From assembly GCA_964344355.1 (NCBI GenBank), contig CAYFNE010000007.1:7225-71224 (forward strand): DNA of 64,000 nucleotides, in the 5' to 3' direction. How positions within the stretch are numbered: the stretch's first letter is position 1; each line of letters opens with the position of its first letter. The notes beneath the pieces are model-generated. The model had not been told where the DNA came from. It saw nothing but the letters and a program-made list of their open reading frames with translations, and did not search any database. This DNA comes from an uncultured Magnetococcales bacterium. Lineage in GTDB: Bacteria > Pseudomonadota > Magnetococcia > Magnetococcales > CAYFNE01. Shown here piece by piece: positions 10,392 through 59,528 of this stretch. A program made the position numbers and the translations under genes.

Positions 10392-10569
10392 TTGATTGTT
10401 TCCGTTCAACAATATGACCTTCCACCGGGGCGGTTCGGCAATATTTGCCCGGTTCCCCCCAGGAAATAGGTGCCCATCTCCCCAACAGGAAGGGGTTGGA
10501 ATATTTCAACGAGCCGCCGTGAAAAATACCGATACCGTACAAACCGATTCCAACCGTTCCCAAGGTGAA

Positions 10570-13544: not shown

Positions 13545-13568
13545 GTATCGCGCTCCGGGATCGGGACA

Positions 13569-38200: not shown

Positions 38201-38415
38201 TACCCGGTTTTTTCGCCTCACGAAATAGTGATTACAGAGGCTTGGCCCGCCAGCGGGATGAGGGAAAGGTTTCCCTGAAACCTGGTTGGGTTCACACAAC
38301 GATTTGCGGTGGTTGGAGCCCGAGCGGTCTACCTGTGGGACGCCCGATGGCCAACTGGTTTCGTGCGCCTGTCGGATGACTTGGAGAAATAATCCCTTTA
38401 ACTGGAAAACAAGGC

Positions 38416-40347: not shown

Positions 40348-40485
40348 ACCGGTCCGTTTGGTCAGAGGCGATCGAGAGAGACCTGGCACGGGCATTCGAA
40401 CCAGGGCTGAACCGGAGACCGCTGTTGACAACCCCCTGTTTCAGAAATTCAAGCACTTCCTGACGTCCTTCCATGGGTGGTGTGA

Positions 40486-45074: not shown

Positions 45075-47447
45075 TCATGGTCGCACGGTCATTCTCAGTG
45101 TTTTTTCCGCCAGTGCGGCCTCTTCCATCAGCGACGGCAGCAGGTTTTCGGCCTTTTTGAACCGTTTGAAACGGCCGAGGATACCGAGTTTCAAGGCCAG
45201 TTCGGCCAGGGAGGCCATACCCAGTTGGTGGCTGGATCCTTTGAGACCGTTGGCTTCGATATACAGACTCCGGCCCTCTTTGCGGGCGATGGCCTCTTTC
45301 ATGGCCGTGAGCTGTCGTGGCAAATTTTCCAGGAAGGTTTCGACCACCTCCGTGGAAAAGTGATCCAAGGTCGGCAGCAAGGTTTGCAGGGAGTCGGCAA
45401 AGGGGCCGTCGGTCACCGGAACCGGCGGGGATTCGGTTCGTTCTTCTCCATGCAGCCAACGGTTGATCATGTTTTCAAACGTTTGCACCTCGATCGGCTT
45501 GGTCATGTAGTCATCCATGCCGGCCTCCAGACATTTTTCCCGATCCGATGCCATGCCCAGGGCGGTTACGGCCACCACCGGTGTTTTGGGGCGGGTTTTG
45601 CTCTTTTTTTCCATCTGTCGCAATCTCCGGCAGGCGTCGAAACCGTCCATCACCGGCATCAGGCAGTCCATCAAGACCAGATCGAAGGCATGCCCGTTCA
45701 ATTTTTCCAGGGCCTCCTGGCCATTGGTGGCCAACTCCGGTTCGATGCCCATTCGTTGCAGCAGGCGGGTGGTCAGCAGTCGGTTGACCGGGTTGTCCTC
45801 CACCACCATGACCTTGGCCGTTTTTGTCTGAATCACCCGCGGATCGATTTTTTGCACCCGGCTTTTTGCCGGTGCCCGGCCCGTACTCGTCAGCGGCAGT
45901 ATGAAATGAAAGGTGCTGCCCCGGCCCGGCTCGCTCTCCACCCAGATGCGTCCACGCATGATATCGATGAACCGTTTGCACAGGGCCAGTCCCATTCCGG
46001 TGCCGCCGAAATGACGGGAACTGGTGGAATCGACCTGGGTGAACGGGTCAAAAATGAGGGCCTGTTTATCCTCGGCTATGCCGATGCCGGTATCATGAAC
46101 CGAAAAATGCAGGGCGTGTACGTCGGAATAGTCGCGGGCGTGATCGACCTGTAGATGGACGGAACCCCGGTGGGTGAACTTGATGGCATTTCCCAGCAGG
46201 TTCAACAGTACCAGCCGCAAGCGCCGCACGTCACCTTTGAGGTACTCATCCAGACCGTCGGCGAGGCGGCGGGTCAGGGTCAACTCTTTTTGCCGGGCGC
46301 GGGGGGTCTGGATGCTGATCACGTTGTCGATGAGGGCCGGCAATGAAAACGAACGGTTTTCCGGCGGGGCTCCCGGCTCGGAACGGGAAAGCTCCAGAAT
46401 GTCATCGATCAATCCCAGCAGGGCGTGACTGGATTCCCCGAGGGTGGAAACATATTTGCCCTGCTCCAGGTCCAGTTCGGTGCTTTTCAGGAGCTCGGTC
46501 ATGCCGACGATGGCATTCATGGGCGTGCGGATTTCATGGCTCATGATGGCCAAAAATTCACTTTTCGTCCGGCTTCCGGCCTCGGCCAGCTCTTTGGCCA
46601 GGCGCAACTCCTCGGTTCGTTCCGCTACCAGTTCCTGCAGATGATCCCGGTGGCGGTGCAGCTCGGCCTCGACCCGTTTTTGCCGGGTGATGTCCCGTAT
46701 CAGTTCAAAAATGCGCAACGGCTGGTCCTGATCATCCCTGACCAGCCAGGCCCGAACCCGGGCGGGAAAGGTCGACCCGTCCTTTCGGCGATATCTTTTC
46801 TCCCTCAGACCGGTGCAGCCGTGCTGAAACAGGCGCTCATTGGTCGATTGGATCTCCACTTGCCGTTCCTCATCGCCCAGCAACCGTTGCCGCGGCAGGC
46901 TGCGGATTTCCTCCAGATCGTAACCGAGCATGTTGAGATAGGCGGGATTGGCATCTTCGATCCGGCCGTCGAGGTTGACATAGGCGATGCCATCCCGGCT
47001 GGTTTCGAACAGGCTGCGATGTTTCTCTTCGGAGGCCTTGATGATCGATTGGGCCTTTTTTCGTTCCAGGATCAACCGCACCAACTGCCGCATGACCGCC
47101 CAGTTGATCGGTTTGGTGACATACTCTTCGGCCCCGGCCTTGAAGGCCCGATCCACGGAGACATCATCTTCCAGGGCGGTCACCATGATGATCGGCAAAT
47201 CCTGGCCCCGGGGATGGTTTTTGATCGTTTCGCAAGCCTGGAACCCATCCATGTCCGGCATGATGGCATCCATCAGGATCAGATCGGGCAGATGTTTGCG
47301 GAACAGGGTCACGGCCTCTTCCCCGCCCGACGCCTCAATGACCTCGAAACCGCTGCCGTTCAGGAACTGCATCACCACTTCACGGCTGATTTCATCGTCA
47401 TCCACGACCAGGATGAGCGGGCGTTCGCGGCTGTTGGGGTTGCTCAT
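45075..47447 (-). CDS. Hybrid sensor histidine kinase: REC-PAS-HisKA-HATPase-REC-HPt
   Basis: ORF track extends to 47906. Start set to ATG 47447 ([19 protein letters not shown]). H-box [14 protein letters not shown]. HATPase motifs DTGIGI and GTGMGL. Second REC VMVVEDN...DCLMPVMDG. HPt KGSSHQLG. An in-frame ATG at 47653 is an alternative start. Confidence 0.88.
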
Positions 47448-48138
47448 GGGCGGTTCTTTTTCGGGTGAAAAGGGTGGGAGGTCGCCGATGGGGCATCCAA
47501 GCCGTTGTCGCACCGACCGGTCTTGAACAGGTTTCAAGTGGGCCGGTTGAAAATCCTCCTCTCGACCAGGGCGCCTTCCATGGTTGGCGCCGGGTGGTCG
47601 ATCGGGGTGTCGAAAAACCAGCGGCTGAAATGATTCGGTAATCACCTCCATGCAATTACCGAACCCAACCGTTTCGAGCTGAACCCGAAAACGGTTGCAC
47701 CGCGAATCACCCGTTGCCAACCCTCCCTGGTTGGCGCGAGGTGTCCGGAGATTTCGTGAACCACTCTCACCGTTCGGGCGCCGTGGGTGGAAGGTTCGCC
47801 GTGAACCGGGTTGGCCGTTTCGGCCGGTACCCCGGGGATCCCATGATTCCGATAAGAAGCTGCTGAAAAACCTTACGACAGCCTCTTGCGATCCATGGAT
47901 GGACAATCTTCAAGATAAGGCATGATCGGTTGCATGGGGTATCGCGTGGATGCTCGACAAAGTGTCACGCAGTATAATGGACGAGCGATAAGCTGGTAAA
48001 GGGCTCAGCGGCAGTGAAGGTGGGAATGGTGTGACGGTGTGTAACGAAAGTCAGATGATTTTTTTGCAAAGTCCAAAGATACATCATCCTGCACGGGTCA
48101 TTGTCGACCTCTTTTGATTTGATCGTATCTTATTGATT

Positions 48139-48759
48139 TTATTGGACCAGTCCCAGACGGACGGCATAGTTGGTCATTTCGGCCTTGGTGCGCATGCCGA
48201 GTTTTTCGCGCAATCGGGTTTTGTGGGTATTGACGGTGCTGGGGCTGATGTTCAAGGCCCGGGCGATCTCCTTGTCGGTGAGGCCGGCGGCGATGCGGGC
48301 CAGCACCTGCTGTTCGCGGCTGGAGAGCCTTTTACGGGGGCCGGCGCGATGGATCGCCTCGATCTTGTCGGCCAGCACGGGGCTGAGGAAGCGGCGGCCC
48401 GAGTGGATGGTCCGTACCGCCTGGATCAACTCTTCGAAGGTGTTTTCCTTGAGAATATGGCCCAGCGCTCCCGCCTCTTCGGCTTGCAGGACCAGGGCCG
48501 GATCGTTGTGGCTGGTGAGAATGGCCACCCGTACGTTGGGAAGTTCACGGTTGATGCGGGCGGTCAATTCGATGCCATCCATGCCGGGCATGGAGATATC
48601 GACGATGGCCACATCCACCGGACAATCGCGGATCCGTTGCCAGGCCTCCTGGCCGTCACCAACCTGACAAATCACCTCGATGTCCGGTTCGGCGTTCAAC
48701 AGTCCGGCGAGACCCTGGCGGAACAGGGCGTGATCATCGGCGAGAAAGATACGAATCAT
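48139..48759 (-). CDS. NarL/LuxR-family response regulator
   Basis: Start set to ATG 48759 (MIRIFLADDHALFRQG). REC ...VDISMPGMDG. C-terminal LuxR HTH LSSREQQVLARIAAGLTDKEIARALNISPSTVNTHK. Confidence 0.9.
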   Translation of the reverse strand: MIRIFLADDHALFRQGLAGLLNAEPDIEVICQVGDGQEAWQRIRDCPVDVAIVDISMPGMDGIELTARINRELPNVRVAILTSHNDPALVLQAEEAGALGHILKENTFEELIQAVRTIHSGRRFLSPVLADKIEAIHRAGPRKRLSSREQQVLARIAAGLTDKEIARALNISPSTVNTHKTRLREKLGMRTKAEMTNYAVRLGLVQ

Positions 48760-49002
48760 GTCCGTTCGATCGAATTGGCGGTTGAGGATGGCCGTTCCGG
48801 GTCTGTTTTTATTGTTTTGGGGGTTCTTCCGCAACCGTGGCGAAGACCCGGAACCCGAGGCCGGATCTTCGCACGATTGGACGGTTTCGCCAAGGTTGGT
48901 TCAAAGGGTATCGATATTCCCGATGTCCGGGAAGGGTCATTCGTTCGGGGTGCGGTTCGGATCCCGGGTTTGCCGATGGTGGAAAAACAGGTTCACGAAC
49001 GT

Positions 49003-49911
49003 CTACAGCACGGTACCCCGCACCTGGTTCCTGCCACTGCTCTTCGACAGGTAGAGCATCCGGTCGGCGGTCTCCAGCAGGGGTTCGGGGGTCGAACCCC
49101 TGGTCGGGGTCATCGTTGCATAGCCGATGCTGGTGGTGACGACATCGGCGGAGGTGGAACCGGCATGGGGGATGCGCAACGCCTCGACCCGTTCGCGCAA
49201 GTTTTGGGCGAGGATTTCGGTGCCCTTGCAATCCACATGGTAAAGGATGAGGGCGAACTCTTCGCCACCGATGCGGGCCAGGAAATCGGACGGTCGGCGG
49301 ATTCCCCCTTTCAAGGCCTGGGCGACCCGTTTCAAACAGTCATCGCCACGGGCATGACCGTATTGATCATTGAACCGTTTGAAATGGTCGATATCCAGCA
49401 TGATCAGGGACAGGCCGGTTTTTTCCCGCATCGAGCGCCGCCACTCCCGGTCCAGGGTTTCATCGAAATGACGGCGGTTGGATATGCCGGTCAGGCCATC
49501 CGTAACCACCAACCGTTCCAACTCCTCCAGTTTGCGTTTGTAGGTCAGGTGCAGGTGAATCCGCGCCCGTATCTCCCCGGGACTCAGGGAACGGTCGATA
49601 TAATCGGTCACGCCGGTCTTGGCGGAAAAACAGTCATCGTTGGAGTGTCCCGTGGAGACCAGGAGCACCAGGGGTGTGTTTTTCCAGGACGGTTTGGAGT
49701 TCAAGTGACGATGCATTTTTTGAATGTCCATATCGGCCACGGCCACATCCAGGAATATCAGGTCTGGTTGGTTTTTTTCGGCGATTTCCAGGGCTTCCGA
49801 ACCGTTGGTGGCGACGATGACGTCATGATGATCGATCAAGGGGATTGAAATTTGATCGATCTGTTCGGGAATGGTATCGACCACCAGGATCGTTGGTTTT
49901 TTGCCGTTCAT
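49003..49911 (-). CDS. Response regulator-diguanylate cyclase (REC-GGDEF, GGEEF active site, RxxD I-site)
   Basis: REC TILVVDT...LDVAVADMD (atypical). GGDEF domain with RRPSDFLARIGGEEFALIL. Confidence 0.88.
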   Translation of the reverse strand: MNGKKPTILVVDTIPEQIDQISIPLIDHHDVIVATNGSEALEIAEKNQPDLIFLDVAVADMDIQKMHRHLNSKPSWKNTPLVLLVSTGHSNDDCFSAKTGVTDYIDRSLSPGEIRARIHLHLTYKRKLEELERLVVTDGLTGISNRRHFDETLDREWRRSMREKTGLSLIMLDIDHFKRFNDQYGHARGDDCLKRVAQALKGGIRRPSDFLARIGGEEFALILYHVDCKGTEILAQNLRERVEALRIPHAGSTSADVVTTSIGYATMTPTRGSTPEPLLETADRMLYLSKSSGRNQVRGTVL

Positions 49912-49974
49912 GTCCTGAGCCTTTCATTGCTGTCGTTGTCGTTCTTATTCGGATAATGCCCGTTTCACCTTCGC

Positions 49975-52900
49975 TCAGGCGGCATATTGCATGAGCTGGA
50001 CGGGTTGCGGTTTCAGGTGGGCCTTGACCCGATCGACCATGCCGGGCTCACCCGCCGGGCTGTTGGATCGCGGCGTCATGGTGCTGAAAACCTCCGACAA
50101 ACCACGCACCTCCAACACCAGGTTGCGGGAAGCGATTTCCAGGTCCTGCAACAGTCGGAGATGTTCATCCCGGCAGTTCTCCCGTTCCTGCTCGAACCGA
50201 TCGAGCCGGGATTGAATGTCATTTCCCTGTTTGCTGGCCTGGCCGAGAAGTTCGTTGATCCTGCGGTTGGTCAACGCGTTGTCCCGGGGTGGGAAACCGC
50301 CTTTCCGAACGAGGGTCCGGCGGCGCATGTTTTGTGAAATCACCTGGCGCTGGATTTCACTGCAGGCATTCTGAAGGGCATACACCCGCTGGTTGATCGC
50401 CAGGTTGGTTTGCCGTTCGATGTGCTGGATCTCTGCGAGCGTGTCGGCGAATTTGCTTTCCAGCTTTCGTAACCGTTCGACGATGATCGGCTGGCCGCTT
50501 TTGCCCTTGTGGATTTGACGGCTGATCTGATCGAGGTCCAAACCGTCGACGCCGGTGTAGAGAATGGTCCGGACCTGATCGAGATGCTGAAAGGCCGCCA
50601 ATACCTCGTTGAAATCCCGGACGATGCGGCGATACCGTTTTTCGAGGGTACGGATCCGGCCCACCTTGTTCACTCCCAACAACTCCGGCAACCGTTGGGC
50701 GATGTCCAGCAGGGGGAGAAGGCTGTTTTTTTCCAGGTTCGGCAGGTCGGTCCGATGAATCCGCACGGCCTCGGAACCGAAGGCGCGAATCATTTTTTTC
50801 AGTTCGTCATCATCGCCGGTCAATGAATCCAGGCCGCGTAACCAACTGCGGCGGGTGTGTTTGAAATCCGAAAACGGTTCCATGAAGGTTTTTTGGAACA
50901 GGTACCCACTCACCCGTTTCATCCAGGAGGGTGCGACCGGGGTGAATGCCGGCCAACCGAGAAAAACGCCCAGGGTCACCGTTTTGGGATTTTTCCTGCG
51001 GTTCTTCCGAAGGTTGTCGATGTCCCGGGCGCCATTGTTGCCATCATGGTATAGCGCGTTGATCATCAGGGGGGTCGCCTCACCGGTCTGAAGGGTGGTG
51101 TTGAATGCCGATGGCTCCATGCCATGGGCGATGTGGAAATCCCGGGCGAACCGGACCTGGTTCCACATCTGTCCGCGTTCGATATCCCGGAAATGGGCGC
51201 GGAAAGTGGGAACCGTCAAGACATGTTCGGAATCCAGGCCGGGGATGATGCTGTGCAGGAGCCGCCGCAGATGAACCTCTCGGTTGTTGGAAAAAAGGTG
51301 CAGTGTCCGTATGCGATCGATACATCCCTCCATGTCGGCGATGCGAACGGTGAGGAACAGGCTCCGGAACCAGGTGACGGTCCGAACCAGGGCGGAGCGG
51401 TCCTTGCGGTCCCGCAGGATCGGCCGGATATCCTCCAGCATCCGGTAGAAGGCATCCTGCAGGCAGCGCCGGTTGGGCATCGCCACCTCCGGCAGCATCC
51501 TGCGCAGTTCCGGATTTTTGAAATAGTCCTCACTGCGATTGATGAAGGCGGTCTCCCACTCCAACACATCGCCCAGGGCGGTGATCACCGTCTGCCGGTC
51601 CTCGATGCCCAACCGGGCGGTGCGGCGGGCCAGGAGCAGCACGTCGGCCAGGTCCATGCCGGCGGCCAGGGCCAACACCGTCATCAGGATCAAATGGGCC
51701 CAGATGGGTCCGTACTGGTTGGTGAAAAACCGTTTCAGGTCTTCCATGCTCCGGTGGCTGGCCCGGGGAATGGCATGGCGTTTGAGCGCCTCGATGGCGG
51801 AAATTTCCGGGGCGATGGTGATCTCGATGTAATAGTTGTTGAAACGGGCGCCGCCGGCCTTGTCCACCTGTTCGAGGATGTCCACATACCGGGAAACCAA
51901 CCCCTGGAGTTCCTTCATGATCCGGTCATAGTTCACCCGGTGCCGTTCCATCTCCCGGACCACCCGTTCCACCACCTTGTTCACCTGATAGTGTTCCAGA
52001 AAGAAGATGCGGTTGATGCCCGGGAAGAGGGTGTTTTTATCCAAAAGGTTTTTTTCCATCTCATTGAAATGATGACGCGCCCGGGATGTGGTCTGATCAA
52101 GACTTTTCTTGTGTTCGAGGGCGAGTTTTTCCAGTTTGTCGGCCACTGGAACCGAGAGGTCGATGCCGGAGCTGCTCAACATGTAGTCCACCTGTCTGGC
52201 CAGGGGGCCATTGCCGAAGGTGTGGCGAACGTCGCGGCTGCCCGGTTCATAACCGCCGTAGATAATGAACTTCTTTCCCCAAAACCGGGGTCCCGGATAG
52301 GCGATGTTGCTGGAAGCCCGACCTTCCCGTTCATCCTTGGGCAGGGCGTAATAGCGCGCCAAAATGGTCTCGATGGTCCCTTCCAGTTGCGCGTGCAGAC
52401 CATACAGGGAGTCCATGTCTCCCGATGCCACCGCCTTGGAGGAGCCGATGGCGGCGTTGACCTGGTGGCGAATGTCCTCGACCTGCCGGCTCAACTCCAT
52501 CTGTTTGGAAAAGAGGGTGACGAAACCGTCATAGTTGGTCTTGATCGAAACCGCCATCAGCACCGCTGCCAGGGCCGTCCAGCGCGGGTGGCGCATGAAG
52601 GTGTTGCGGATCCCTTTGAGCACCCCGCCGGATTCGGCGATGTTGCGGAACACCCGTCCCTTGAAGTCGAGGATTGCCGAAGAGAACAGGACACCGACGG
52701 CGAAGGAGAGGAGGGTTCGGGCGAGCTCCCCCTCTTCCCCGAGAAAGGGTTGGCCGAACAACGCTTTTCCGAAAGGGGTTTGAACCAGTTCGTTCATTCC
52801 CCAGGCGGTGGTGACGGTCGATCCGCAAAAAAGGAGGGCCACCAGGGGCGGTTTGGCCGAGGAGAACAGTTTGGAAACGGTTTCGGACAGGCGATGCCGG

Positions 52901-53364
52901 AACTGGGGATAGGGATGGGGCTCGGTCCAGATCTCGCGGAAGGTCGGATGAAGGATCGATGGCCGGGGCAACTGATCGAGGACATCGGCATGGATGGCCT
53001 GAAACCGTTGTTCGATCTTTTTCAAACTGTCGCGGAACAGGTGGCGTGCCAACTTGTGCAGCGGATCGTTGTCTAAACGGGATTCATCGCCGATCTCAAC
53101 GGCCTTTTTAAAGGTGTTCATGTGGCTCGTGAACGGTTTTCCGGTCGGTGCCTTGCCGGCGTCGTGACCAATGTCCCGGTTTGAGCCGGGGCCCTGCATC
53201 ATCGGTTGTTGAACGTTTTTCGAATACCAGTGGACGATTTTACGGATGGTCACATTCAAACCACCCTCGCCGATTTCGCTGGCCGAGTTCCAACCAGTTT
53301 GCAGAACGGTCAGCGCTTTTTTGCCGTAGTACTCAAAAAAGGGGTTTTTGTGCGACTTTTTCAT
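49975..53364 (-). CDS. Large hypothetical membrane/coiled-coil protein (1129 aa), no family recognised
   Basis: Uninterrupted 1129-aa ORF. Hydrophobic spans: PPLVALLFCGSTVTTAWGM, LLSFAVGVLFSSAILDF, WTALAAVLMAVSIKTNY, IWAHLILMTVLALAAGMDLADVLLLA. Long heptad-like charged stretches. No P-loop or other catalytic motif seen. Confidence 0.75.
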   Translation of the reverse strand: MKKSHKNPFFEYYGKKALTVLQTGWNSASEIGEGGLNVTIRKIVHWYSKNVQQPMMQGPGSNRDIGHDAGKAPTGKPFTSHMNTFKKAVEIGDESRLDNDPLHKLARHLFRDSLKKIEQRFQAIHADVLDQLPRPSILHPTFREIWTEPHPYPQFRHRLSETVSKLFSSAKPPLVALLFCGSTVTTAWGMNELVQTPFGKALFGQPFLGEEGELARTLLSFAVGVLFSSAILDFKGRVFRNIAESGGVLKGIRNTFMRHPRWTALAAVLMAVSIKTNYDGFVTLFSKQMELSRQVEDIRHQVNAAIGSSKAVASGDMDSLYGLHAQLEGTIETILARYYALPKDEREGRASSNIAYPGPRFWGKKFIIYGGYEPGSRDVRHTFGNGPLARQVDYMLSSSGIDLSVPVADKLEKLALEHKKSLDQTTSRARHHFNEMEKNLLDKNTLFPGINRIFFLEHYQVNKVVERVVREMERHRVNYDRIMKELQGLVSRYVDILEQVDKAGGARFNNYYIEITIAPEISAIEALKRHAIPRASHRSMEDLKRFFTNQYGPIWAHLILMTVLALAAGMDLADVLLLARRTARLGIEDRQTVITALGDVLEWETAFINRSEDYFKNPELRRMLPEVAMPNRRCLQDAFYRMLEDIRPILRDRKDRSALVRTVTWFRSLFLTVRIADMEGCIDRIRTLHLFSNNREVHLRRLLHSIIPGLDSEHVLTVPTFRAHFRDIERGQMWNQVRFARDFHIAHGMEPSAFNTTLQTGEATPLMINALYHDGNNGARDIDNLRKNRRKNPKTVTLGVFLGWPAFTPVAPSWMKRVSGYLFQKTFMEPFSDFKHTRRSWLRGLDSLTGDDDELKKMIRAFGSEAVRIHRTDLPNLEKNSLLPLLDIAQRLPELLGVNKVGRIRTLEKRYRRIVRDFNEVLAAFQHLDQVRTILYTGVDGLDLDQISRQIHKGKSGQPIIVERLRKLESKFADTLAEIQHIERQTNLAINQRVYALQNACSEIQRQVISQNMRRRTLVRKGGFPPRDNALTNRRINELLGQASKQGNDIQSRLDRFEQERENCRDEHLRLLQDLEIASRNLVLEVRGLSEVFSTMTPRSNSPAGEPGMVDRVKAHLKPQPVQLMQYAA

Positions 53365-53423
53365 TGTTTCTTCCTTTCACCCGTTGTCCGGTTCCGGTTG
53401 CCGATTCCCGGCGTGGCGGTTGA

Positions 53424-53672
53424 TCATCCATTCAAAAGGGGGTTGGTCGTTTCCCGATTGACGCCACCCGTGAGCAGCCGGCAGACGGCGGCGAACAAAA
53501 TCAGGTGAGCGGTGTGGCGGGCCAGGGTGTCTAGGTGATGGTCCCGTTGATTTTTTGGTGTTTTCATGGTGGTTTCCGTCAGATGGACCGGGATCGGCGT
53601 TACTGGAGCCGTTATCGCGGTGGCCGGTGTCCGGCGGGGATCGATGTGGGTCCCGTCGCTCGTTCCGTTCAT
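53424..53672 (-). CDS. Hypothetical small protein (82 aa) translationally coupled to the DnaJ-like gene
   Basis: ATGA start/stop overlap with the upstream gene (53669-53672). C-terminal hydrophobic stretch AHLILFAAVCRLLTGGV. No similarity to CbpM recognised. Confidence 0.4.
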   Translation of the reverse strand: MNGTSDGTHIDPRRTPATAITAPVTPIPVHLTETTMKTPKNQRDHHLDTLARHTAHLILFAAVCRLLTGGVNRETTNPLLNG

Positions 53673-54673
53673 GATGCGGCTCCCATCTCGCAGTGGTGCT
53701 GGGCGGTCGTTCGTTCGGGTTGCCAGTTGGTGGTCGGCATGGCGCCCGGTTTTCCTTTCATCCAGCGGGACAACTCCTCACGGGTATCCGAGCTCAGTTC
53801 CGGCAGGATCACTTTCAAGGTGATGATTTGCCGGCCGGGGTCGGCCCCCGGCAAACCATGTCCTTTCAAGATCAATTTTTTGCCGCTGTGGCTGTGCGGG
53901 GGAATTTTGATCTTGACCGGACCGCCGAGGGTCGGAACCGTGACCGTGGCTCCGAACACCGCCTCCCACAGGTTGATTGAAAGTTCGACATGGCTGTCAC
54001 GTCCATCGAGATGAAACAGATCGTGGGGGCGGATGTGGATGGTGAAATAGAGATTTTCCATCGGCGCCCCGCCGGAGGTGGGTTTGCGCCGCAGATGGAT
54101 GGTCTGCCCCTCGATCACCCCGGGCGGAATTTCAACCCGTATCCGCGCCACTTTTTTTCGAGTCCGGGTGTAGATGGCGAACTGTTTATGGCAACCGTTG
54201 AACGCCTCTTCCAGGGTGATGTCGAGGCGGTGGGCCTTGGCCAGGGAGAGGGGCGGGGGGAACCAGGAAGCGCCGCCGTGGCCATTGTGATAGTGGTTCG
54301 TCGGTTGCTGGTCGTTGCCGGGGTCATCGTCCCGGCTCCTGAACAGAAAACCATCCAGGGGTTCACCGAACCCTCCGGCGGTGGAGCCGGGTCGGGGTTC
54401 GTTCCCCTCTTCGTGGAAGGTCGAAGCACCCGGGGTTGGCGCCGGTTTGACCCAGCTGCGGAAGGCCCGGTCGTAAATGGCCCGTTTTTTGGGGTTTTTG
54501 AGCGTTTCATAGGCTTCGTTCAGCTCTTTGAAACGGGCCTCGCTGCCCGGGGCGCGATTGACGTCCGGGTGGCTTTGCAACGCCAACTGGCGAAACCGTT
54601 TTTTGATTTCGTCGATGCCCGCGGTGATCTCGACACCGAGAATTCGATAGTAATCCTTGTAACTCCTGTCCAT
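53669..54673 (-). CDS. DnaJ-class co-chaperone without zinc finger (CbpA-like)
   Basis: ORF track extends to 54790. Start set to ATG 54673 (MDRSYKDYYRILGV). J-domain with HPD (ALQSHPDVN), no Cys-rich zinc-finger region after the J-domain, and C-terminal DnaJ_C-like beta domains. Confidence 0.88.
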   Translation of the reverse strand: MDRSYKDYYRILGVEITAGIDEIKKRFRQLALQSHPDVNRAPGSEARFKELNEAYETLKNPKKRAIYDRAFRSWVKPAPTPGASTFHEEGNEPRPGSTAGGFGEPLDGFLFRSRDDDPGNDQQPTNHYHNGHGGASWFPPPLSLAKAHRLDITLEEAFNGCHKQFAIYTRTRKKVARIRVEIPPGVIEGQTIHLRRKPTSGGAPMENLYFTIHIRPHDLFHLDGRDSHVELSINLWEAVFGATVTVPTLGGPVKIKIPPHSHSGKKLILKGHGLPGADPGRQIITLKVILPELSSDTREELSRWMKGKPGAMPTTNWQPERTTAQHHCEMGAAS

Positions 54674-54977
54674 GATGGCACCTGTGGTTTGAGTGTTTAA
54701 GGAAACCATCCGCTTGTCCCGGTTGTGGGTCGGGAGCCGCCGCCAATGGATCCGCTTGATTACCGAATCCATAGTCAGGAAACGTGCCATAGATGAAAGG
54801 TCTGTTTTTTGTATTTAAAAACAATGCATTGAAAAGATCGGCCGTTTGCTGGCGAGCTACGGGAGGGAGGTTGCAAAATGAGCGGGGAAAAGGGGAAACG
54901 ACCGGGTTTATTGCCGTTTCAAGCGTAATATCAATAAGTTGTATCGTTTGGTCGGAATTGTCACCGGTCGCAATTCG

Positions 54978-56414
54978 CTACCGGCCTCTCTTTTTGTCTT
55001 CGGCGCCGATACGACGCATGAGGGTGTGGCGGGAGATGCCGATCAGGGCGGCGGCGGCCCGCTGATTGCCGTCCACACGCCGGAGCGCCTCCTGGATCAA
55101 CAAGCGGGTGGTTTTTTCCACGGTCGGCAGGGGGTCGGGCAGGGTTTGAAACGGGTTGGCATCGGTGTCATCGACAGCGGGGGAAACACTCTCTTCACCG
55201 GTGTTGCTGCGGTGCCGGATGACCTTTTTGAAGGAGTCCGTGGAGAGCACGCCGGCGGTGTGCCGGGCCACGGCATCCGTGACCAAGGCGTGCAGCTCCC
55301 GGATGTTCCCGGGAAAGGCGTAGGATTTGAGCCACTGGAACAGTTCCGGCGGTGGGGTGGGCACCTTTTTGTCGAGGGAGGCGGCCGCCTCTTCGAGGAA
55401 ATATCGAACCAGCAGGGGAATATCCTCCTTGCGCTCGCGCAGGGCCGGCAACCGCACCTGGTGGGAGGAGAGGCGATAGAACAGATCGGGACGGAACGTA
55501 CCGGCATTCATGCGTTCCTCCAGGTCCCGGTGGGTGGCGCAAACCACCCGGGCATCGGTGGTTTGGGAGAGGTCCGAACCCAGGGGATGATATTTTCGTT
55601 CTTGCAGCAAGCGCAGCAATTTGACCTGGGAAGCGTGTTCCAGGTCGCCGATTTCATCGAGAAACAGGGTGCCCCCCTCGGCCTGGGCCACCATTCCCTT
55701 TCGATTTTGATCGGCGCCGGAAAAGGCCCCTTTGCGATGGCCGAACAGGGTATCGGAAAACATGTTGTCGTCGATGCCGGCCACATTGACCGCCACCAGT
55801 TCCCCCTGGCGGCCACTGGCCTTGTGGATGGCCTGTACCAGCAACTCCTTGCCGACGCCGGTTTCGCCGGTCACCAGGATCGGATCCTTGGAATGGGCCA
55901 CGGCTTCGATATATTTGAAAATGGCCCGCATCTCCCCGTTCCGGGTCAAAATGTGCGAAAAGGCCTCGGGGTTTTGCAACCCTTCGGCCAGCAAGGAGCC
56001 TTTCAAAGCCCGGATCTCCCGTTCCATGGCCCGGCGCTCCAACGCCCGTTCGATGCAGGAGAGAAATCGGGTCTCCTCGACCGGTTTCACCAGATAGTCG
56101 AAGGCCCCGTCGTGCATGCACTGGACGGCTGTTTCCACATTGTCGACGGCGGTCATCATGATGACCGGGATATCGGGGAATCTGTTTTTGATTTCCGGCA
56201 ACAGCTTGTGCCCGGGCAGTTCCGGCATCAGGACGTCCAACACCACGACGCCAACCCCACTCTTTTCCAAAAAGGGCAGCAACTCCCGCCCCCTTTGAAA
56301 GGTTTTGACCGGACCGAAACCGTGGGTACGCAACAGCACCCGCGAGGTCATCAAAATATCGGCTTCATCATCGACCAGGACGATCGGCAGCTGGTTGGCA
56401 TCGTTGTGTGACAT
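54978..56414 (-). CDS. Sigma-54-dependent response regulator (NtrC family)
   Basis: ORF track extends to 56618. Start set to ATG 56414 ([21 protein letters not shown]). AAA+ Walker [15 protein letters not shown] (GAFTGA-type sigma-54 contact loop). C-terminal [20 protein letters not shown]. Confidence 0.92.
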
Positions 56415-56451
56415 GATTGATCCCGTGTTGGCGTTGTCACCGGACCGGCCG

Positions 56452-58566
56452 TCATCGACCGACGGTGGGGCTGATTCCTTTCGTCGGTTCCACCTCGTGG
56501 CCCAGGGGCAGGATGACCTCGACCGTGGTGCCGCGCCCCTCCAGGGAGTCCAACCGCATGCGGCCGCCATGCTCCTTGATGATGGTATTGGTGATCGACA
56601 GTCCCAATCCGACCCCATCGCTGTTTTGGCGGGTGGTGAAAAAGGGGCGTTTCACCTTGTTGAGATTTTCCCTTGGAATACCGACCCCTTCATCCCGCAC
56701 CACCACGCGGATGGTTTCGTTGGGTCCATCGATTTCGCAGGTGACGGAAACGCCCTTTTTCCGGTTGGCGAGGGATTGCAGGGCGTTGTGGAACAGATTG
56801 ATCCAGACCTGCTCGATCTGTTGCGGGTTTCCGGAGATGAAGAGGGGTGGGCCGCTGAAGTCGGGCAGGTCGAAATGGTCGGTATGGCGGACGATCTCGT
56901 TTTGCAGGATGGCGACGGCGGACTGCAGGGATTCAAAAATGTTGACCGGCTGGTCCAGCCGTTCTTCATCCTTGCGCCCGGAACGTTTGATGTGGGCGAC
57001 GATGTTTTTGATGCGGTCGGAGTTGTTGCGGATGATGGCCAGCAGGTCCCGGGTGGTCTCATCGGCCTCATCGAGTGGCATGCCGGCCAGGGCAAGGGGG
57101 CCGTTCTGCCGCTGGCTCTCTTCCAGGACCGGCTGAACATCTTCCCAGATGCGTATCAAAGAGGAGGCGGCGAATCGCAAACTGTTGTTCGGGTTGTTGA
57201 TTTCATGGGCGACACTGGCGGCCAGCACGCCGATGGAGGCCAGACGCGAGGTGTGGATGGCCTGCATCCGCAAGGAACGTTTTTCGGTGATGTCGGTGGC
57301 GATGACCAGGGCCTGGGGGCTGTCCCCTTCCCGGGGTTGCAGGGGGGCGAGACGAAACTCCCACCAGGATTCGTCGTCTCCGGTGCTGATGAACCCCTCC
57401 ACGTCACCCTTTTCGAACACCTGTTCCAGTTGAGTTCGATAACGGTTGTGCAGCGCCTTCGGGAAAAGGGTTAAAAAAGAGTCACCCGGCTGGATGTTGG
57501 CGAAAGGGGCCGGGGCGGTGCGATTGAGGAACACGATTTTGCCGGTGCGATCCAGGACCATGAGATGATCGGGGGTGTTTTCGAACAGGTTGCGCAGTTT
57601 TTCCTCGGAAGCCCGCAACGCCTGCTCGGCGGCCTTTCGGGCGGAAATGTCCCGGACCGTGCCCATGAACAGTTTTTTGTTCGCCAGCGGCACCTCCGAA
57701 ACCGACAGCTCCAGGGGAACCGCTGAACCATCCTTGCGAACGCCGGTGGTTTCGATGGTTCGTCCCAAAAAGTTCGGCGTGTCCGGTTTCAGGAGTTGTT
57801 CGAAAGGATTTTCCGGGTCGGTCGGCGATGAGGGGCGGGGCATCAACCGCCACGCTTCGGTGCCGATCAACTCGTCGGGGGCATAGGCGAAAATTTTTTC
57901 CAGCCCCGGGTTGACCGACTCTATTCGTCCGGAGGTATTGATGGTGATGATGCCATCGACGGCCATTTCAAAAATGGCCTTGAGTTGGGAGTTGCTGGCG
58001 ATGAGCTGTTTTTCCGCCTGTTTACGTTCATTCACCTCCTGCTGGAGGGAGCGGTTCAGGGTTTTCAACTCGCCCGAGCGCATCTCCACCAGCTCTTCCA
58101 GATGGCTGGTGAAATGGTGCAACTCCAGGCGCTGACGGCGCAGCATGATCTGGGTGTTGACCCGGGCCCGTACCACATAGGGCTTGGCCGGTTTGGTGAT
58201 GAAATCGACCGCCCCCATTTCCAGGGCCCGCGCTTCATCCACCGGCCGGCCGCTGGCGGTCAAAAAGATGATCGGTATGTCGCAGGCCAATTGCGTTCGT
58301 TTCAAACGGCCGCATACTTCGAAACCATCCATCCCCGGCATCATGATGTCCAGCAGGATCAGGTCCGGCGGTTGCGATGCGGCCAGATCGAGCGCATCGG
58401 GGCCATTGGTGGCGATGACGAGATCGTAGTCGTCGCCGAGGATGTTTCCCAGGACTTCGATGTTTCCCGGCAGATCATCGACGATCAAAATGCGCGCCCG
58501 TTCACCGTTGTCCGATTCCGGCCATTCCGACAGCCGTTTTGAAAACAGTCGTTCCAGGGAGGACAT
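56452..58566 (-). CDS. REC-PAS-PAS-HisKA-HATPase sensor histidine kinase (soluble)
   Basis: ORF track extends to 58635. Start set to ATG 58566 (MSSLERLF...). REC ILIVDDLP...DIMMPGMDG. H-box VAHEINNPNN. HATPase motifs DEGVGI and GVGLGLS. Confidence 0.88.
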   Translation of the reverse strand: MSSLERLFSKRLSEWPESDNGERARILIVDDLPGNIEVLGNILGDDYDLVIATNGPDALDLAASQPPDLILLDIMMPGMDGFEVCGRLKRTQLACDIPIIFLTASGRPVDEARALEMGAVDFITKPAKPYVVRARVNTQIMLRRQRLELHHFTSHLEELVEMRSGELKTLNRSLQQEVNERKQAEKQLIASNSQLKAIFEMAVDGIITINTSGRIESVNPGLEKIFAYAPDELIGTEAWRLMPRPSSPTDPENPFEQLLKPDTPNFLGRTIETTGVRKDGSAVPLELSVSEVPLANKKLFMGTVRDISARKAAEQALRASEEKLRNLFENTPDHLMVLDRTGKIVFLNRTAPAPFANIQPGDSFLTLFPKALHNRYRTQLEQVFEKGDVEGFISTGDDESWWEFRLAPLQPREGDSPQALVIATDITEKRSLRMQAIHTSRLASIGVLAASVAHEINNPNNSLRFAASSLIRIWEDVQPVLEESQRQNGPLALAGMPLDEADETTRDLLAIIRNNSDRIKNIVAHIKRSGRKDEERLDQPVNIFESLQSAVAILQNEIVRHTDHFDLPDFSGPPLFISGNPQQIEQVWINLFHNALQSLANRKKGVSVTCEIDGPNETIRVVVRDEGVGIPRENLNKVKRPFFTTRQNSDGVGLGLSITNTIIKEHGGRMRLDSLEGRGTTVEVILPLGHEVEPTKGISPTVGR

Positions 58567-58604
58567 GGTCAACAAGGGCTCCGGTTCGGGTGGGAAGGGG
58601 GGGG

Positions 58605-59528
58605 TCACAGTTGGATTCCCATGGTTTGATCGCACCCTTTTCCCCGCGCCTCGTCCAACATTCTGTGGGCGGATTTGATGATGGTCCGGACTTTGTTTTT
58701 CAGGCTGGGGATGATGGAAGCGAAACCGATGCTGATGGTGACGTGACCGTTGGCTTCCGAGTTGGGGAAAGGTATGTTCAGATAGTTGACGCAGGTGGAT
58801 AATTTGTCCGCCATGATACCGGCCTGCTCAAAATTCAACTGGGGCAGGATGGCGATGAATTCATCATCCGCATATCGGGCCAGGAGGTCGGTGGGGCGGC
58901 GCAGATGGGCGCCGACGGCCATGGCGACCCGTTTCAAACAGTCGTCTCCCGCCACCCGGCCACAGTGATCGTTGTAGGCCCTGAACCGGTCGACATCCAA
59001 CACGATCAGGGTGAGCCAGGAGTCCTCCCGCCGGCTTCGTCGCCACTCCCGGTCGAGAAACTCCTCGAAATAAATTCGATTGTAGGCACTCGTCAATGGA
59101 TCGGTGCGGACCATTTTTTCGAGGGCATGGCGCTGACGCCTGTTTTCCAGATGCATTCGGACCCTGACCTTGAGTATGGCCGGCCGGAAAGGGCGGGTGA
59201 TATAATCGACCGCTCCCATCTCCAATCCTTTCCTTTCATCGATTTCACTGTCGCGGATGGTGACGAAAATGATCGGGATTTCGCGGGTTTTGGTGTTGGA
59301 TTGCAGACGGCGGCAGGTTTCGTAACCATCCATTCCCGGCATGCTGATGTCCAACAGGATGAGCTCCGGCTGGTGTCTTTGTGCCGTGTCCAGCGCATCG
59401 AGACCATTGGTGGCCACCACCAGCTCGTACTCGTCGCCCAATATCGAAGCCAACAGATCGATGTTGGAGAGCACATCATCGACCAGAAGGATCCGTGGTG
59501 TGGATTTTTCAATCATCATCCGTGTCAT
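58605..59528 (-). CDS. REC-GGDEF response regulator with degenerate active site (ADDEF) and retained RxxD I-site
   Basis: REC RILLVDDVL...LDISMPGMDG. GGDEF domain reads LRRPTDLLARYADDEFIAIL. ATGA overlap with the upstream kinase (59525-59528). Confidence 0.88.
   Translation of the reverse strand: MTRMMIEKSTPRILLVDDVLSNIDLLASILGDEYELVVATNGLDALDTAQRHQPELILLDISMPGMDGYETCRRLQSNTKTREIPIIFVTIRDSEIDERKGLEMGAVDYITRPFRPAILKVRVRMHLENRRQRHALEKMVRTDPLTSAYNRIYFEEFLDREWRRSRREDSWLTLIVLDVDRFRAYNDHCGRVAGDDCLKRVAMAVGAHLRRPTDLLARYADDEFIAILPQLNFEQAGIMADKLSTCVNYLNIPFPNSEANGHVTISIGFASIIPSLKNKVRTIIKSAHRMLDEARGKGCDQTMGIQL

What the first reader, a model, noticed from the sequence alone, without database searches (positions are those of the whole stretch)
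48139..54790. Operon-like string DnaJ/CbpA-like - 82-aa ORF - 1129-aa unassignable membrane/coiled-coil protein - REC-GGDEF - NarL/LuxR, directly downstream of an NtrC-type activator
Seen: five co-directional minus-strand genes. The J-protein stop overlaps (ATGA) the 82-aa ORF start. The 1129-aa protein has about four hydrophobic spans in two groups separated by long charged, heptad-like regions. It has no P-loop or other catalytic motif that I can recognise. A GGEEF cyclase and a LuxR-type regulator follow. Known: CbpA-type J-proteins usually pair with a small modulator (CbpM). J-domains recruit Hsp70 to dedicated clients. Inference: the giant protein may be a dedicated DnaK client or scaffold whose state is read out through c-di-GMP and a LuxR regulator. 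That would be a chaperone-linked signalling module I cannot match to a described system.
Basis: partly seen in the sequence, partly recalled or inferred. Interest (0 to 1): 0.55.

Follow-up and report, generated by a model that had tools for sequence, protein, structure and literature searches.

The report
Sigma-54 operon with orphan membrane protein
A magnetotactic coccus has a conserved, probably sigma-54-controlled operon that pairs a CbpA-like co-chaperone and a c-di-GMP synthase with a 1129-residue membrane protein from an uncharacterised family found only in this bacterial order; in relatives this protein carries c-di-GMP-binding PilZ domains and often sits beside the magnetosome genes.

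Summary
The five co-directional minus-strand genes exist, and their domain assignments are correct.

- The J-protein starts at Met41 (54670), because a conserved -24/-12 element overlaps the ATG at 54790.
- The 82-aa ORF is unconserved and probably not a gene.
- The LuxR gene is not syntenic elsewhere.

The REC-PAS kinase, NtrC-type activator, J-protein, 1129-aa protein and REC-(GGDEF) are syntenic in three related loci. All four orthologous loci share TGGCAC[G/A/T]NTTCCTGA and two upstream activator-like sites, so a sigma-54 operon is likely.

The 1129-aa protein is not a dynamin or SMC. It has no Pfam, NCBIfam, PADLOC, PDB or Foldseek match, even with a core model of pLDDT 87. It belongs to a family found only in Magnetococcales, with at least three or four paralogs in several genomes. 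Its strongly conserved core has four membrane helices and a loop inferred to be periplasmic. Its cytoplasmic tail is variable.

That tail ends in PilZ domains in about half the members, including those of Magnetococcus marinus MC-1 and Magnetofaba australis IT-1. Members without PilZ are instead followed directly by a REC gene or a cNMP-binding gene.

I therefore read the large protein as a signal-controlled effector rather than a reported-on chaperone client. The J-protein link is real but confined to this clade. The protein's function remains inferred.

The parts
56452..58635 (-). REC-PAS-PAS histidine kinase. The public gene call is 704 aa, so the start is about 58566. Probable sensor kinase of the module.
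   Evidence: Pfam REC, PAS_4/PAS_9, HisKA and HATPase_c. Orthologous and syntenic in L004 (68% identity) and L001 (55%).
54978..56618 (-). NtrC-type sigma-54 enhancer-binding protein (REC, AAA+, HTH_8). The public gene call is 478 aa, so the start is about 56414.
   Evidence: Pfam Sigma54_activat 3e-57, REC, AAA_lid_14 and HTH_8. A GAFSGA loop is visible in the translation. About 70% identical orthologs sit directly upstream of the J gene in L004 and L001.
54966..54982 (-). Candidate activator site 1 (UAS-like). Near-palindrome GGTAGCGAATTGCGACC overlapping the EBP stop codon.
   Evidence: Conserved in all four orthologous loci, including L002, which has no EBP gene upstream. There it is the perfect palindrome GGTCGCA-ATC-TGCGACC (A5).
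54862..54880 (-). Candidate activator site 2, CATTTTGCAACCTCCCTCC. It repeats the TGCAACC half-site.
   Evidence: GCAACCnCCCTCC is invariant in the four loci.
54775..54789 (-). Sigma-54-type -24/-12 element, TGGCACGTTTCCTGA. It has the -24 GG, but -12 reads GA instead of GC.
   Evidence: Present at the equivalent position in 4 of 4 orthologous loci. Background frequency of the pattern is 0.02 per kb over 2.05 Mb. It was missed by the strict consensus scan because it has 3 mismatches.
53669..54670 (-). CbpA-type (class B) J-domain co-chaperone, 333 aa from Met41. The HPD motif is intact and there is no zinc finger.
   Evidence: Pfam DnaJ 1e-22 and DnaJ_C 5e-36. It scores below all NCBIfam equivalog cut-offs. 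It is 53% identical to the syntenic L004 protein and only about 41% to generic CbpA proteins.
53424..53672 (-). 82-aa ORF overlapping the J stop codon (ATGA). Probably not a conserved gene.
   Evidence: No family hit. Singleton cluster. No homolog in any related locus. Coding score -0.05. No Rfam match in the spacer.
49975..53364 (-). 1129-aa member of a Magnetococcales-only membrane protein family. Inferred layout: N-terminus in the cytoplasm, TM1-3 (172-282), a conserved loop of about 275 aa inferred to be extracytoplasmic (283-557), TM4 (558-578), then a helical cytoplasmic tail of about 550 aa. This paralog has no PilZ domain.
   Evidence: distribution. (models). (no fold match). (topology and conservation). 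(29% identity over 848 aa, E 7e-108, to MC-1 ABK44745.1).
49003..49911 (-). REC-GGDEF diguanylate cyclase with GGEEF and an RxxD I-site. The receiver is atypical: DD is DT and the KP lysine is R. It starts 63 nt after the large gene.
   Evidence: Pfam GGDEF 1e-49 and REC 3e-10. Alignment. Orthologs follow the large gene in L004 (64% identity) and L002 (52%). In L001 it is truncated to REC only.
48139..48759 (-). NarL/LuxR-type response regulator. The public gene call is 206 aa, although the ORF is open to 48834. It is co-directional, lies after a 243-nt gap, and is not a conserved member of the module.
   Evidence: Pfam REC and GerE. Gap and start. No counterpart in L001 or L002. The L004 contig ends too early to tell.

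Best explanation
The region is a two-component-controlled operon.

1. Regulation (inferred). The REC-PAS kinase is inferred to phosphorylate the NtrC-type activator. The activator would bind two conserved upstream sites and fire a sigma-54-type promoter at about 54775-54789.
2. Transcript (inferred). The transcript would encode the J-protein, the 1129-aa membrane protein and the REC-GGDEF cyclase.
3. The large protein (fold and function unknown). It belongs to a family found only in magnetotactic cocci, and its conserved 'business end' is the four-helix membrane core plus a loop of about 275 residues. I infer that loop to be extracytoplasmic from the positive-inside rule and from the cytoplasmic PilZ domains of paralogs.
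4. Input side (inferred from genomic association). The variable cytoplasmic tail is where signals enter. In roughly half the family it ends in one to three canonical PilZ domains. In PilZ-less clades the very next gene encodes a receiver (REC-GGDEF, REC only, or REC-HATPase_c_2) or a cNMP-binding-hemerythrin protein. I therefore propose the large protein is an effector controlled from the cytoplasm, with inside-out logic like LapD. In this paralog the separately encoded REC-GGDEF would replace the fused PilZ, docking through its atypical receiver and/or supplying c-di-GMP locally.
5. The J-protein (inferred). It is a diverged CbpA paralog recruited into this operon. It most plausibly brings DnaK to help fold, insert or remodel the long helical cytoplasmic parts of the large protein.

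Shown here: gene content, synteny, the conserved promoter and UAS-like motifs, family distribution, the PilZ/REC/cNMP association, the conservation profile, and the absence of any known fold.

Inferred: operon transcription, topology, direction of signalling, physical interactions, and the role of DnaK.
For: Synteny:
- HK-EBP-J-large protein-REC-GGDEF in the window and L004.
- HK-EBP-[TA pair]-short J-large protein-REC in L001.
- 137-aa ORF-large protein-REC-GGDEF in L002.

Promoter:
- The -24/-12-like element is present in 4 of 4 orthologous loci against a background of 0.02 per kb.
- Two conserved UAS-like sites are also kept in L002, which lacks the adjacent EBP.
- The EBP has REC, AAA+ and HTH_8 domains and a GAFSGA loop.

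Family distribution:
- 52 loci in the genome scan, all Magnetococcales, with 3-4 loci from each of several MAGs.
- 106 cluster representatives at E <= 0.001 (90 at E <= 1e-10) among 1.84 billion proteins.
- Named members are all Magnetococcales, including MC-1 and IT-1.

Signal receivers:
- PilZ scores above the Pfam gathering threshold in P0008, P0026, P0030, P0023, P0048 and P0049.
- A family-specific HMM finds PilZ in 46 of the 118 proteins then held (42 of the 101 numbered P0001-P0102). The consensus shows RRxxER and DxSxxG.
- Among non-redundant complete loci, 15 PilZ-less members have a REC gene starting no more than 100 nt downstream. None of the 22 PilZ-bearing members has one that close. 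Four have a REC domain starting about 200-240 nt downstream, followed by a sigma-54 AAA+ match, so an EBP gene is inferred.
- 8 of the remaining 11 PilZ-less members abut a cNMP-binding-hemerythrin gene.

Conservation and topology:
- Mean top-residue fraction is 0.67 for TM1-3, 0.57 for the loop (57 columns at 90% or more) and 0.65 for TM4, against 0.30-0.46 for the cytoplasmic tail.
- Charge distribution fits an N-in, C-in topology.

J-protein:
- The HPD motif is intact.
- It is 53% identical to the syntenic ortholog but only about 41-42% to other CbpA-like proteins.
- A generic Magnetococcales CbpA-like gene sits beside dnaK and hsp20 instead.
Against: - The -12 element reads TGA rather than the near-universal TGC, and no transcript data exist.
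- The J-protein is absent from one ortholog (L002), truncated in another (L001), and absent from every other clade. It is therefore not essential to the family's function.
- The PilZ/REC complementarity rests on only about three independent clades, so the Fisher p of 0.008 is not phylogenetically corrected.
- The window protein has no recognisable c-di-GMP-binding site of its own.
- Topology and the 'periplasmic' assignment are inferred only. TM1 and TM3 are weakly hydrophobic.
- No function for the conserved core could be derived. All Foldseek matches have E > 0.05 and TM <= 0.29.
- The window's REC lacks one acidic-pocket Asp and the conserved Lys, and the L001 receiver lacks the phospho-acceptor Asp. 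Phospho-control of this partner is therefore uncertain.
Confidence: 0.45

Rival explanations
1. The large protein is a dedicated DnaK/J-protein client or scaffold. Its folding state is sensed and reported outward through the REC-GGDEF cyclase and the LuxR regulator, making a chaperone-linked signalling module.
For: The J-protein lies directly upstream of the large protein in 3 of 4 orthologous loci and behind the same promoter-like element. The large protein has about 700 residues of long cytoplasmic helices that could need chaperoning. An active-looking GGEEF cyclase follows.
Against: LuxR is not conserved. The J-protein is missing in L002 and in every other clade. Fused PilZ domains in paralogs are inputs, not outputs. 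The 82-aa 'modulator' is not conserved and not CbpM-like.
Confidence: 0.12
2. Outside-in receptor. The conserved extracytoplasmic helical domain senses a periplasmic cue, and the cytoplasmic helical tail transmits it to the partner REC-GGDEF. Fused PilZ domains merely tune the receptor, as in PilZ-tailed chemoreceptors.
For: The layout (TM, extracytoplasmic helical bundle, TM, long cytoplasmic helices) resembles chemoreceptors and sensor kinases. The gene sits among two-component genes.
Against: In sensors the ligand-binding domain is usually the most variable part. Here the membrane and loop core is the most conserved part and the cytoplasmic tail the most variable. There is no kinase, HAMP or MCP-signal domain in any member tested. 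The partners differ by clade (REC-GGDEF, REC, REC-HATPase_c_2, cNMP-binding), which fits interchangeable inputs better than a single output.
Confidence: 0.2
3. Loose co-regulation only. The J-protein is an ordinary CbpA-like stress chaperone that happens to share a sigma-54 stress or adaptation regulon with an unrelated membrane protein and a cyclase, with no specific J-to-large-protein relationship.
For: The J-protein has the generic CbpA architecture, and thousands of homologs reach about 40% identity. It is dispensable in L002 and decaying in L001, where it is 190 aa.
Against: It is a distinct paralog. A separate CbpA-like gene beside dnaK and hsp20 exists in the order. It has stayed directly upstream of the large gene across loci where the large protein has diverged to 48-58% identity.
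Confidence: 0.18

Closest known systems
Magnetococcus marinus MC-1 ABK44745.1 / WP_011713866.1 ('type IV pilus assembly PilZ', 1416 aa) and Magnetofaba australis IT-1 OSM08621.1
   Same: Same protein family. MC-1 is 29% identical over 848 aa with E 7e-108, across the same N-terminal region, TM core and conserved loop. These appear to be the PilZ proteins reported beside the mamAB clusters of IT-1 and MC-1, where they were noted but not characterised (PMC5088516). I did not match the accessions to that paper's ORF numbers.
   Different: They carry a C-terminal PilZ domain and lie near magnetosome genes. The window paralog has no PilZ, has no mam genes within the 64 kb, and is flanked by a J-protein and a REC-GGDEF. 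The 'type IV pilus' label in the annotation is only the old name of the PilZ domain.
LapD-type inside-out c-di-GMP effectors
   Same: The proposed logic is shared: an inner-membrane protein whose cytoplasmic receiver module controls a conserved periplasmic output domain.
   Different: No sequence or fold similarity, and no HAMP or degenerate GGDEF-EAL domains. The receiver here is PilZ, REC or cNMP-binding. No periplasmic partner is known. This is an analogy only.
PilZ-fused effectors (BcsA, Alg44, YcgR, PilZ-tailed chemoreceptors)
   Same: In the paralogs, a C-terminal PilZ with RxxxR and DxSxxG motifs is attached to a membrane protein.
   Different: The attached protein is none of the known glycosyltransferase, motor-brake or MCP types. 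The window member lacks PilZ altogether.
CbpA-CbpM co-chaperone pair of E. coli
   Same: A class B J-protein (J-domain with HPD, DnaJ_C, no zinc finger) followed by a small overlapping ORF.
   Different: It scores 149 bits against the 403-bit cut-off of the CbpA equivalog model. The small ORF has no CbpM or MerR-like similarity and is not conserved. It is embedded in a sigma-54 operon with a large membrane protein.
PspF / sigma-54 / pspA-type arrangement
   Same: An enhancer-binding protein gene lies directly upstream of a sigma-54 promoter with UAS sites, and that promoter drives genes for a membrane-associated, largely helical protein.
   Different: The EBP here has a receiver domain and a cognate kinase, which PspF lacks. 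The large protein is unrelated to PspA. The -12 element is non-canonical.
Dedicated structural J-proteins such as Mycoplasma TopJ
   Same: A J-domain protein devoted to assembling one large helical cellular structure. TopJ models hit only the J-domain.
   Different: No shared architecture beyond the J-domain. The dedication to one client is only inferred here.

Membership tests
   No Pfam, NCBIfam or PADLOC hit. A PDB profile search found only coiled-coil noise. Foldseek best E was 0.42-0.54. The only GxxxxGK stretch, GPRFWGKK, lacks S/T and lies in the loop inferred to be extracytoplasmic.
Magnetococcales large PilZ-associated membrane protein family (unnamed) | Full-length homology across the N-terminal region, TM1-3, conserved loop motifs (GPRYWGK, TNYDG, LEHYQ, VDKxG) and TM4 | tested here: met
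   The window protein keeps the invariant columns of alignment A1.
PilZ-domain c-di-GMP receptors | PilZ domain with RxxxR and (D/N)xSxxG motifs | tested here: not met
   The window protein, and the whole window in six frames, has no PilZ. The feature is met in paralogs.
CbpA (curved-DNA-binding protein) equivalog | Score above the NCBIfam equivalog cut-off, plus a CbpM partner | tested here: not met
   NF007618 scored 149 bits against a cut-off of 403. ORF82 has no family hit.
Class B (type II) J-domain proteins | J-domain with HPD, C-terminal substrate-binding DnaJ_C domains, no CXXCXGXG zinc finger | tested here: met
   Pfam DnaJ and DnaJ_C only. HPD is seen in 'LQSHPDVNR'.
Active GGDEF diguanylate cyclases | GG[DE]EF active site; an RxxD I-site is optional | tested here: met
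   'RRPSDFLARIGGEEF'. Pfam GGDEF 1e-49. Enzymatic activity was not tested.
Canonical phospho-accepting receiver domains | Acidic pair (D12/D13), phospho-acceptor D57, T/S87 and K109, in CheY numbering | tested here: inconclusive
   D57 and S/T are present, but DD is DT and K109 is R in the window protein.
NtrC-type bacterial enhancer-binding proteins | REC + sigma-54-interaction AAA+ with a GAFTGA loop + Fis-type HTH | tested here: met
   Pfam. A GAFSGA variant is visible in the translation.
Sigma-54 promoters | -24 GG and -12 GC spaced as TGGCAC-N5-TTGC | tested here: inconclusive
   TGGCAC and the spacing are met, and the element is conserved in 4 of 4 loci. However, -12 is TGA rather than TGC. 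Sigma-54 dependence cannot be tested with these tools.
NarL/LuxR response regulators | REC + GerE HTH | tested here: met
   Its membership of the conserved module was tested and not met.

The most novel reading that the evidence does not exclude
The 1129-aa protein represents a previously undescribed class of inside-out transmembrane effector with a new fold, exclusive to magnetotactic cocci. Its conserved membrane and extracytoplasmic core would carry out a lineage-specific envelope, magnetosome-membrane or motility function. It would be switched from the cytoplasm by interchangeable receivers: fused PilZ, or a partner REC or cNMP-binding protein. In this paralog a dedicated J-protein/Hsp70 step under sigma-54 control would be part of the switch.
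Probability: 0.2. Interest if true: 0.75.

Novelty: new variant of a known kind. Interest (0 to 1): 0.52.

Why it matters
Magnetotactic cocci are the most abundant magnetotactic bacteria, yet they lack the chain-organising proteins known from Magnetospirillum. How their behaviour and organelles are regulated is largely unknown.

This analysis turns an anonymous ORF into a defined, order-specific protein family:
- several MAGs carry at least three or four paralogs;
- members often sit at the edge of magnetosome gene clusters;
- members are almost always wired to a nucleotide or phospho-signal receiver.

The family has members in two cultured strains (MC-1 and IT-1), so binding, localisation and structural experiments are possible. 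If the inside-out reading holds, the family would add a new output class to c-di-GMP signalling. It would also give a first handle on second-messenger control in this order.

The J-protein link, if specific, would be a rare bacterial case of a co-chaperone dedicated to one membrane protein.

Tried and rejected
- Pfam, NCBIfam and PADLOC scans of the large protein and ORF82 found nothing.
- A profile search of PDB sequences returned only coiled-coil or low-complexity hits in the C-terminal tail.
- Foldseek found no match with E below 0.05. This covered the full-length model (pLDDT 73) against PDB, and the core model (pLDDT 87) against PDB and BFVD.
- The ZorA or stator-like idea was prompted by conserved polar residues in the TM helices. 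It has no support from PADLOC or Foldseek and could not be tested further.
- A strict sigma-54 consensus scan with up to 2 mismatches gave chance-level counts and missed the real candidate. The sigma-70 and terminator scan was at chance level and showed no terminator in the gaps between the large gene, the GGDEF gene and the LuxR gene.
- Rfam found nothing in 47500-57000.
- The CbpM idea for ORF82 is rejected.
- The 137-aa ORF of L002 is neither a decayed J-protein nor an ORF82 homolog.
- A profile-based word search for more named homologs saturated on candidates and added nothing.
- Pfam scanning through an alignment of unrelated window proteins (A2) was abandoned, because that mode reports only family counts.
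- Literature searches found no description of the family beyond a passing mention of a PilZ protein near mamAB.

Full report
**1. Observation**

Pfam assigns the following:
- REC+GerE to 48139-48834.
- REC+GGDEF to 49003-49911.
- DnaJ+DnaJ_C, with no zinc finger, to 53669-54790.
- REC+Sigma54_activat+AAA_lid+HTH_8 to 54978-56618.
- Nothing to the 1129-aa (49975-53364) or 82-aa (53424-53672) products.

NCBIfam also has nothing for those two products. It places the J-protein far below every equivalog cut-off; the CbpA model scores 149 bits against a cut-off of 403.

The ATGA overlap between the J-gene stop and the ORF82 start is real.

The large protein has hydrophobic spans at about 172-194, 214-236 and 262-282, and then at 558-578. 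Otherwise it is entirely helical.

The wider context is a long co-directional signalling string:
- hybrid kinase (59525-63589);
- a REC-GGDEF with a degenerate ADDEF site (58605-59528);
- REC-PAS kinase;
- EBP;
- J-protein, large protein and REC-GGDEF;
- LuxR-type regulator;
- hybrid kinase (45075-47906).

The window matches a contig from ENA metagenome run ERR2281803.

**2. Corrections to the anatomy**

*J-protein start.* I aligned the region upstream of the J gene with the equivalent regions of three related loci. This shows a conserved element, TGGCAC[G/A/T]NTTCCTGA, that overlaps the ATG at 54790. It also shows conserved sequence around the internal Met41 codon. The J-protein therefore most likely starts at 54670 and is 333 aa.

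*ORF82.* It is a singleton in a collection of about 15 billion proteins. It has no tblastn match in any of about 60 related loci. Its coding score is weak, at -0.05 against 0.34-0.53 for neighbouring genes. The orthologous loci have only 73 nt and 17 nt between the J gene and the large gene, so there is no room for it. It is not CbpM-like. I regard it as probably non-coding or strain-specific.

*LuxR gene.* It lies after a 243-nt gap and has no counterpart in the orthologous loci.

**3. Synteny and regulation**

The closest homologs of the large protein have these contexts:

| Locus | Identity to window protein | Gene order |
|---|---|---|
| L004 | 58% | HK-EBP-J-large-REC-GGDEF, as in the window |
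| L001, Magnetococcus sp. MYC-9 | 48% | REC-Hpt, HK, EBP, an inserted TacA/GNAT pair, a 190-aa J-protein, large, a REC-only gene |
| L002/L003/L010, DC0425bin3 | 43% | unrelated 137-aa ORF, large, REC-GGDEF |

- In L001 the REC-only gene's C-terminus aligns with the REC-GGDEF linker, which implies the GGDEF was lost.
- The kinase and the EBP are 55-70% identical across the first three loci.
- The -24/-12-like element occurs at the equivalent position in all four loci. Its background frequency is 0.02 per kb over 2.05 Mb of related sequence.
- Two further motifs are conserved upstream. One is a near-palindrome, GGTnGCA-N3-TGCnACC, at the EBP stop codon. The other is TTTGCAACCnCCCTCC, about 100 bp further on.
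- Both motifs are retained even in L002, where no EBP gene is adjacent.

This is the classic layout of an EBP-dependent sigma-54 promoter. The caveat is that -12 reads TGA rather than TGC, which is why the strict consensus scan missed it. No terminator-like structure was found on the coding strand between the large gene, the GGDEF gene and the LuxR gene. No Rfam family matches in the region.

**4. The large protein and its family**

*No known fold*
- The full-length AlphaFold model has pLDDT 73 and is all-helical.
- A deeper alignment gave a core model of residues 80-700 with pLDDT 86.7 and pTM 0.70.
- Foldseek found nothing significant in PDB (best E 0.42, TM-scores at most 0.21) or in BFVD (best E 0.056).
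- A sequence-profile search of PDB found only coiled-coil noise in the tail.
- PADLOC found nothing.

*Distribution*
- Homologs are confined to Magnetococcales. All 21 word-search hits that carry a name are Magnetococcales.
- All 52 loci from the GTDB species-representative scan are Magnetococcales MAGs, with three or four loci from each of several MAGs.
- An exhaustive HMMER search of 1.84 billion representatives found only 106 proteins at E <= 0.001. Of these, 90 have E <= 1e-10; the weakest hits are probably coiled-coil noise.
- Every named member is from Magnetococcales.
- Two members come from cultured strains. They are M. marinus MC-1 ABK44745.1 (29% identity over 848 aa, E 7e-108) and Magnetofaba australis IT-1 OSM08621.1.
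- These appear to be the otherwise unstudied 'PilZ proteins' once noted beside the mamAB clusters of those strains (PMC5088516). I did not match the accessions to that paper's ORF numbers.

**5. The signalling link**

*PilZ domains*
- Pfam detects C-terminal PilZ domains above the gathering threshold in several paralogs.
- A family-specific HMM finds one to three PilZ copies in 46 of the 118 proteins then held, or 42 of the 101 numbered P0001-P0102. The consensus shows RRxxER and DxSxxG.
- On a neighbour-joining tree PilZ-bearing members are spread over the whole family, so PilZ is probably ancestral and was lost in several clades.

*What replaces PilZ.* Counts below are for non-redundant, complete loci.

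| Group | Loci | Downstream neighbour |
|---|---|---|
| PilZ-less | 15 | REC gene starting no more than 100 nt downstream |
| PilZ-less | 11 | no REC gene close by |
| PilZ-bearing | 4 | REC domain starting about 200-240 nt downstream, followed by a sigma-54 AAA+ match, so an EBP gene is inferred |
| PilZ-bearing | 18 | no REC gene close by |

- The 15 REC neighbours are REC-GGDEF in the window clade, REC-HATPase_c_2 in a clade next to magnetosome gene clusters, and REC only in a third clade.
- No PilZ-bearing member has a REC gene within 100 nt.
- 8 of the 11 PilZ-less members without a REC neighbour have a cNMP-binding-hemerythrin gene abutting their 3' end.
- These patterns rest on about three or four independent clades, so the raw Fisher p of 0.008 overstates the evidence.

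*Conservation*
- The profile is the reverse of a typical sensor. The mean top-residue fraction is 0.67 for TM1-3, 0.57 for the 283-557 loop (57 columns at 90% or more) and 0.65 for TM4.
- The cytoplasmic tail scores only 0.30-0.46.
- Charge distribution, together with the cytoplasmic location of PilZ, supports an N-in, C-in topology with the 283-557 loop outside.

**6. Interpretation**

The most economical reading has these parts:
- The large protein is an effector whose conserved membrane and extracytoplasmic core does the work.
- Its variable cytoplasmic tail receives signals, either through fused PilZ or through separately encoded REC or cNMP-binding partners. This is inside-out logic comparable to LapD.
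- In the window paralog the REC-GGDEF takes the partner role. Its receiver is atypical: DD is DT and the conserved Lys is Arg. The L001 ortholog has lost both the phospho-acceptor Asp and the GGDEF domain. This hints that the receiver fold, rather than cyclase output, is the conserved partner feature.
- The J-protein is a diverged CbpA-type paralog. It is 53% identical to its syntenic ortholog and about 41% to all others. A generic Magnetococcales CbpA-like gene sits next to dnaK and hsp20 instead.
- The J-protein's placement as first gene of the operon suggests it recruits DnaK for folding, insertion or remodelling of the large protein. This association is limited to one small clade and was not tested.

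**7. Rival readings**

- An outside-in receptor model has the extracytoplasmic domain sensing a cue and controlling the cyclase.
- A third model is mere co-regulation of a generic stress co-chaperone.

The rivals are weakened by three findings: LuxR and ORF82 are not conserved, the conservation profile is reversed, and the J-protein is a persistent distinct paralog. None of the three is excluded.

**8. Novelty and verdict**

The logic of the parts is known: a two-component system driving a sigma-54 operon, and PilZ or REC control of an effector. The effector family itself is new, restricted to one order and without a recognisable fold. Its combination with a dedicated-looking J-protein has not, to my knowledge, been described.

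I classify the finding as a new variant of a known kind, of moderate interest. The most valuable product is the definition of this family and its recurrent ties to second-messenger receivers and magnetosome gene clusters.

Noticed in passing
L006/L012, L007/L019, L008, L009, L020, L023, L027, L035, L059, L060 (also L005, L016, L017, L025 and L034 at about 8-13 kb): Many paralogs of the large protein lie at the edge of magnetosome gene clusters. The neighbours include MamF/MmsF, MamB/M-type CDF, MamS/X, magnetochrome, MamK-like actin and PF28196. A small PEGA-domain gene, and often Sel1 and GapR-like genes, sit just upstream. The window itself has no mam genes.
   Followed up: partly
window 58605-59528 (-): A second REC-GGDEF protein has a degenerate active site (ADDEF instead of GGEEF) but keeps the RxxD I-site. 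It may be a c-di-GMP sensor rather than a cyclase.
   Followed up: no
L001 6321-7084: A TacA1 antitoxin / GNAT acetyltransferase toxin pair is inserted between the EBP gene and the J gene in Magnetococcus sp. MYC-9, upstream of the conserved promoter region.
   Followed up: no
L040, L041, L043, L045, L048, L050, L054, L061 (3' flank of the large gene); L037 and L049 (cNMP-binding only): A cNMP-binding + hemerythrin protein is encoded directly against the 3' end of PilZ-less paralogs, on either strand. This suggests O2, iron or cyclic-nucleotide input to some family members.
   Followed up: partly
L015, L017, L018, L055: In one PilZ-bearing clade a REC domain starts about 200-240 nt after the large gene, followed by a sigma-54 AAA+ match. 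I infer an NtrC-type EBP gene there; no Pfam scan was run on these ORFs.
   Followed up: no
L005 10001-17658; L021; L028: Two or more family paralogs share a contig. They are tandem in L005 and L021, which indicates recent local duplication.
   Followed up: no
window 12528-15509 (-) and 38398-40431 (-): Two further large ORFs, of 993 aa and 677 aa, have no Pfam match at E <= 1e-4. They may be other lineage-specific proteins.
   Followed up: no
window 20763-24269 (-), 30904-32667 (-), 10396-12573 (+): There is a cluster of TPR-rich proteins fused to sulfotransferase or glycosyltransferase domains. This may reflect a surface or flagellin glycan modification system.
   Followed up: no
Receiver domains in window 49003-49911 and 58605-59528, and in L002 and L008: Several Magnetococcales receiver domains have 'TRP' or 'DRS' where CheY has the conserved 'VKP' lysine. 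This may be a lineage-specific receiver subtype.
   Followed up: no
TM helices of the large protein (window residues T185/T186, D233/K235, S273/T276/N277/D279, D571/D574): Invariant polar and acidic residues lie inside the predicted membrane helices. This is compatible with an ion path or a stator-like function, but no homology supports it.
   Followed up: partly
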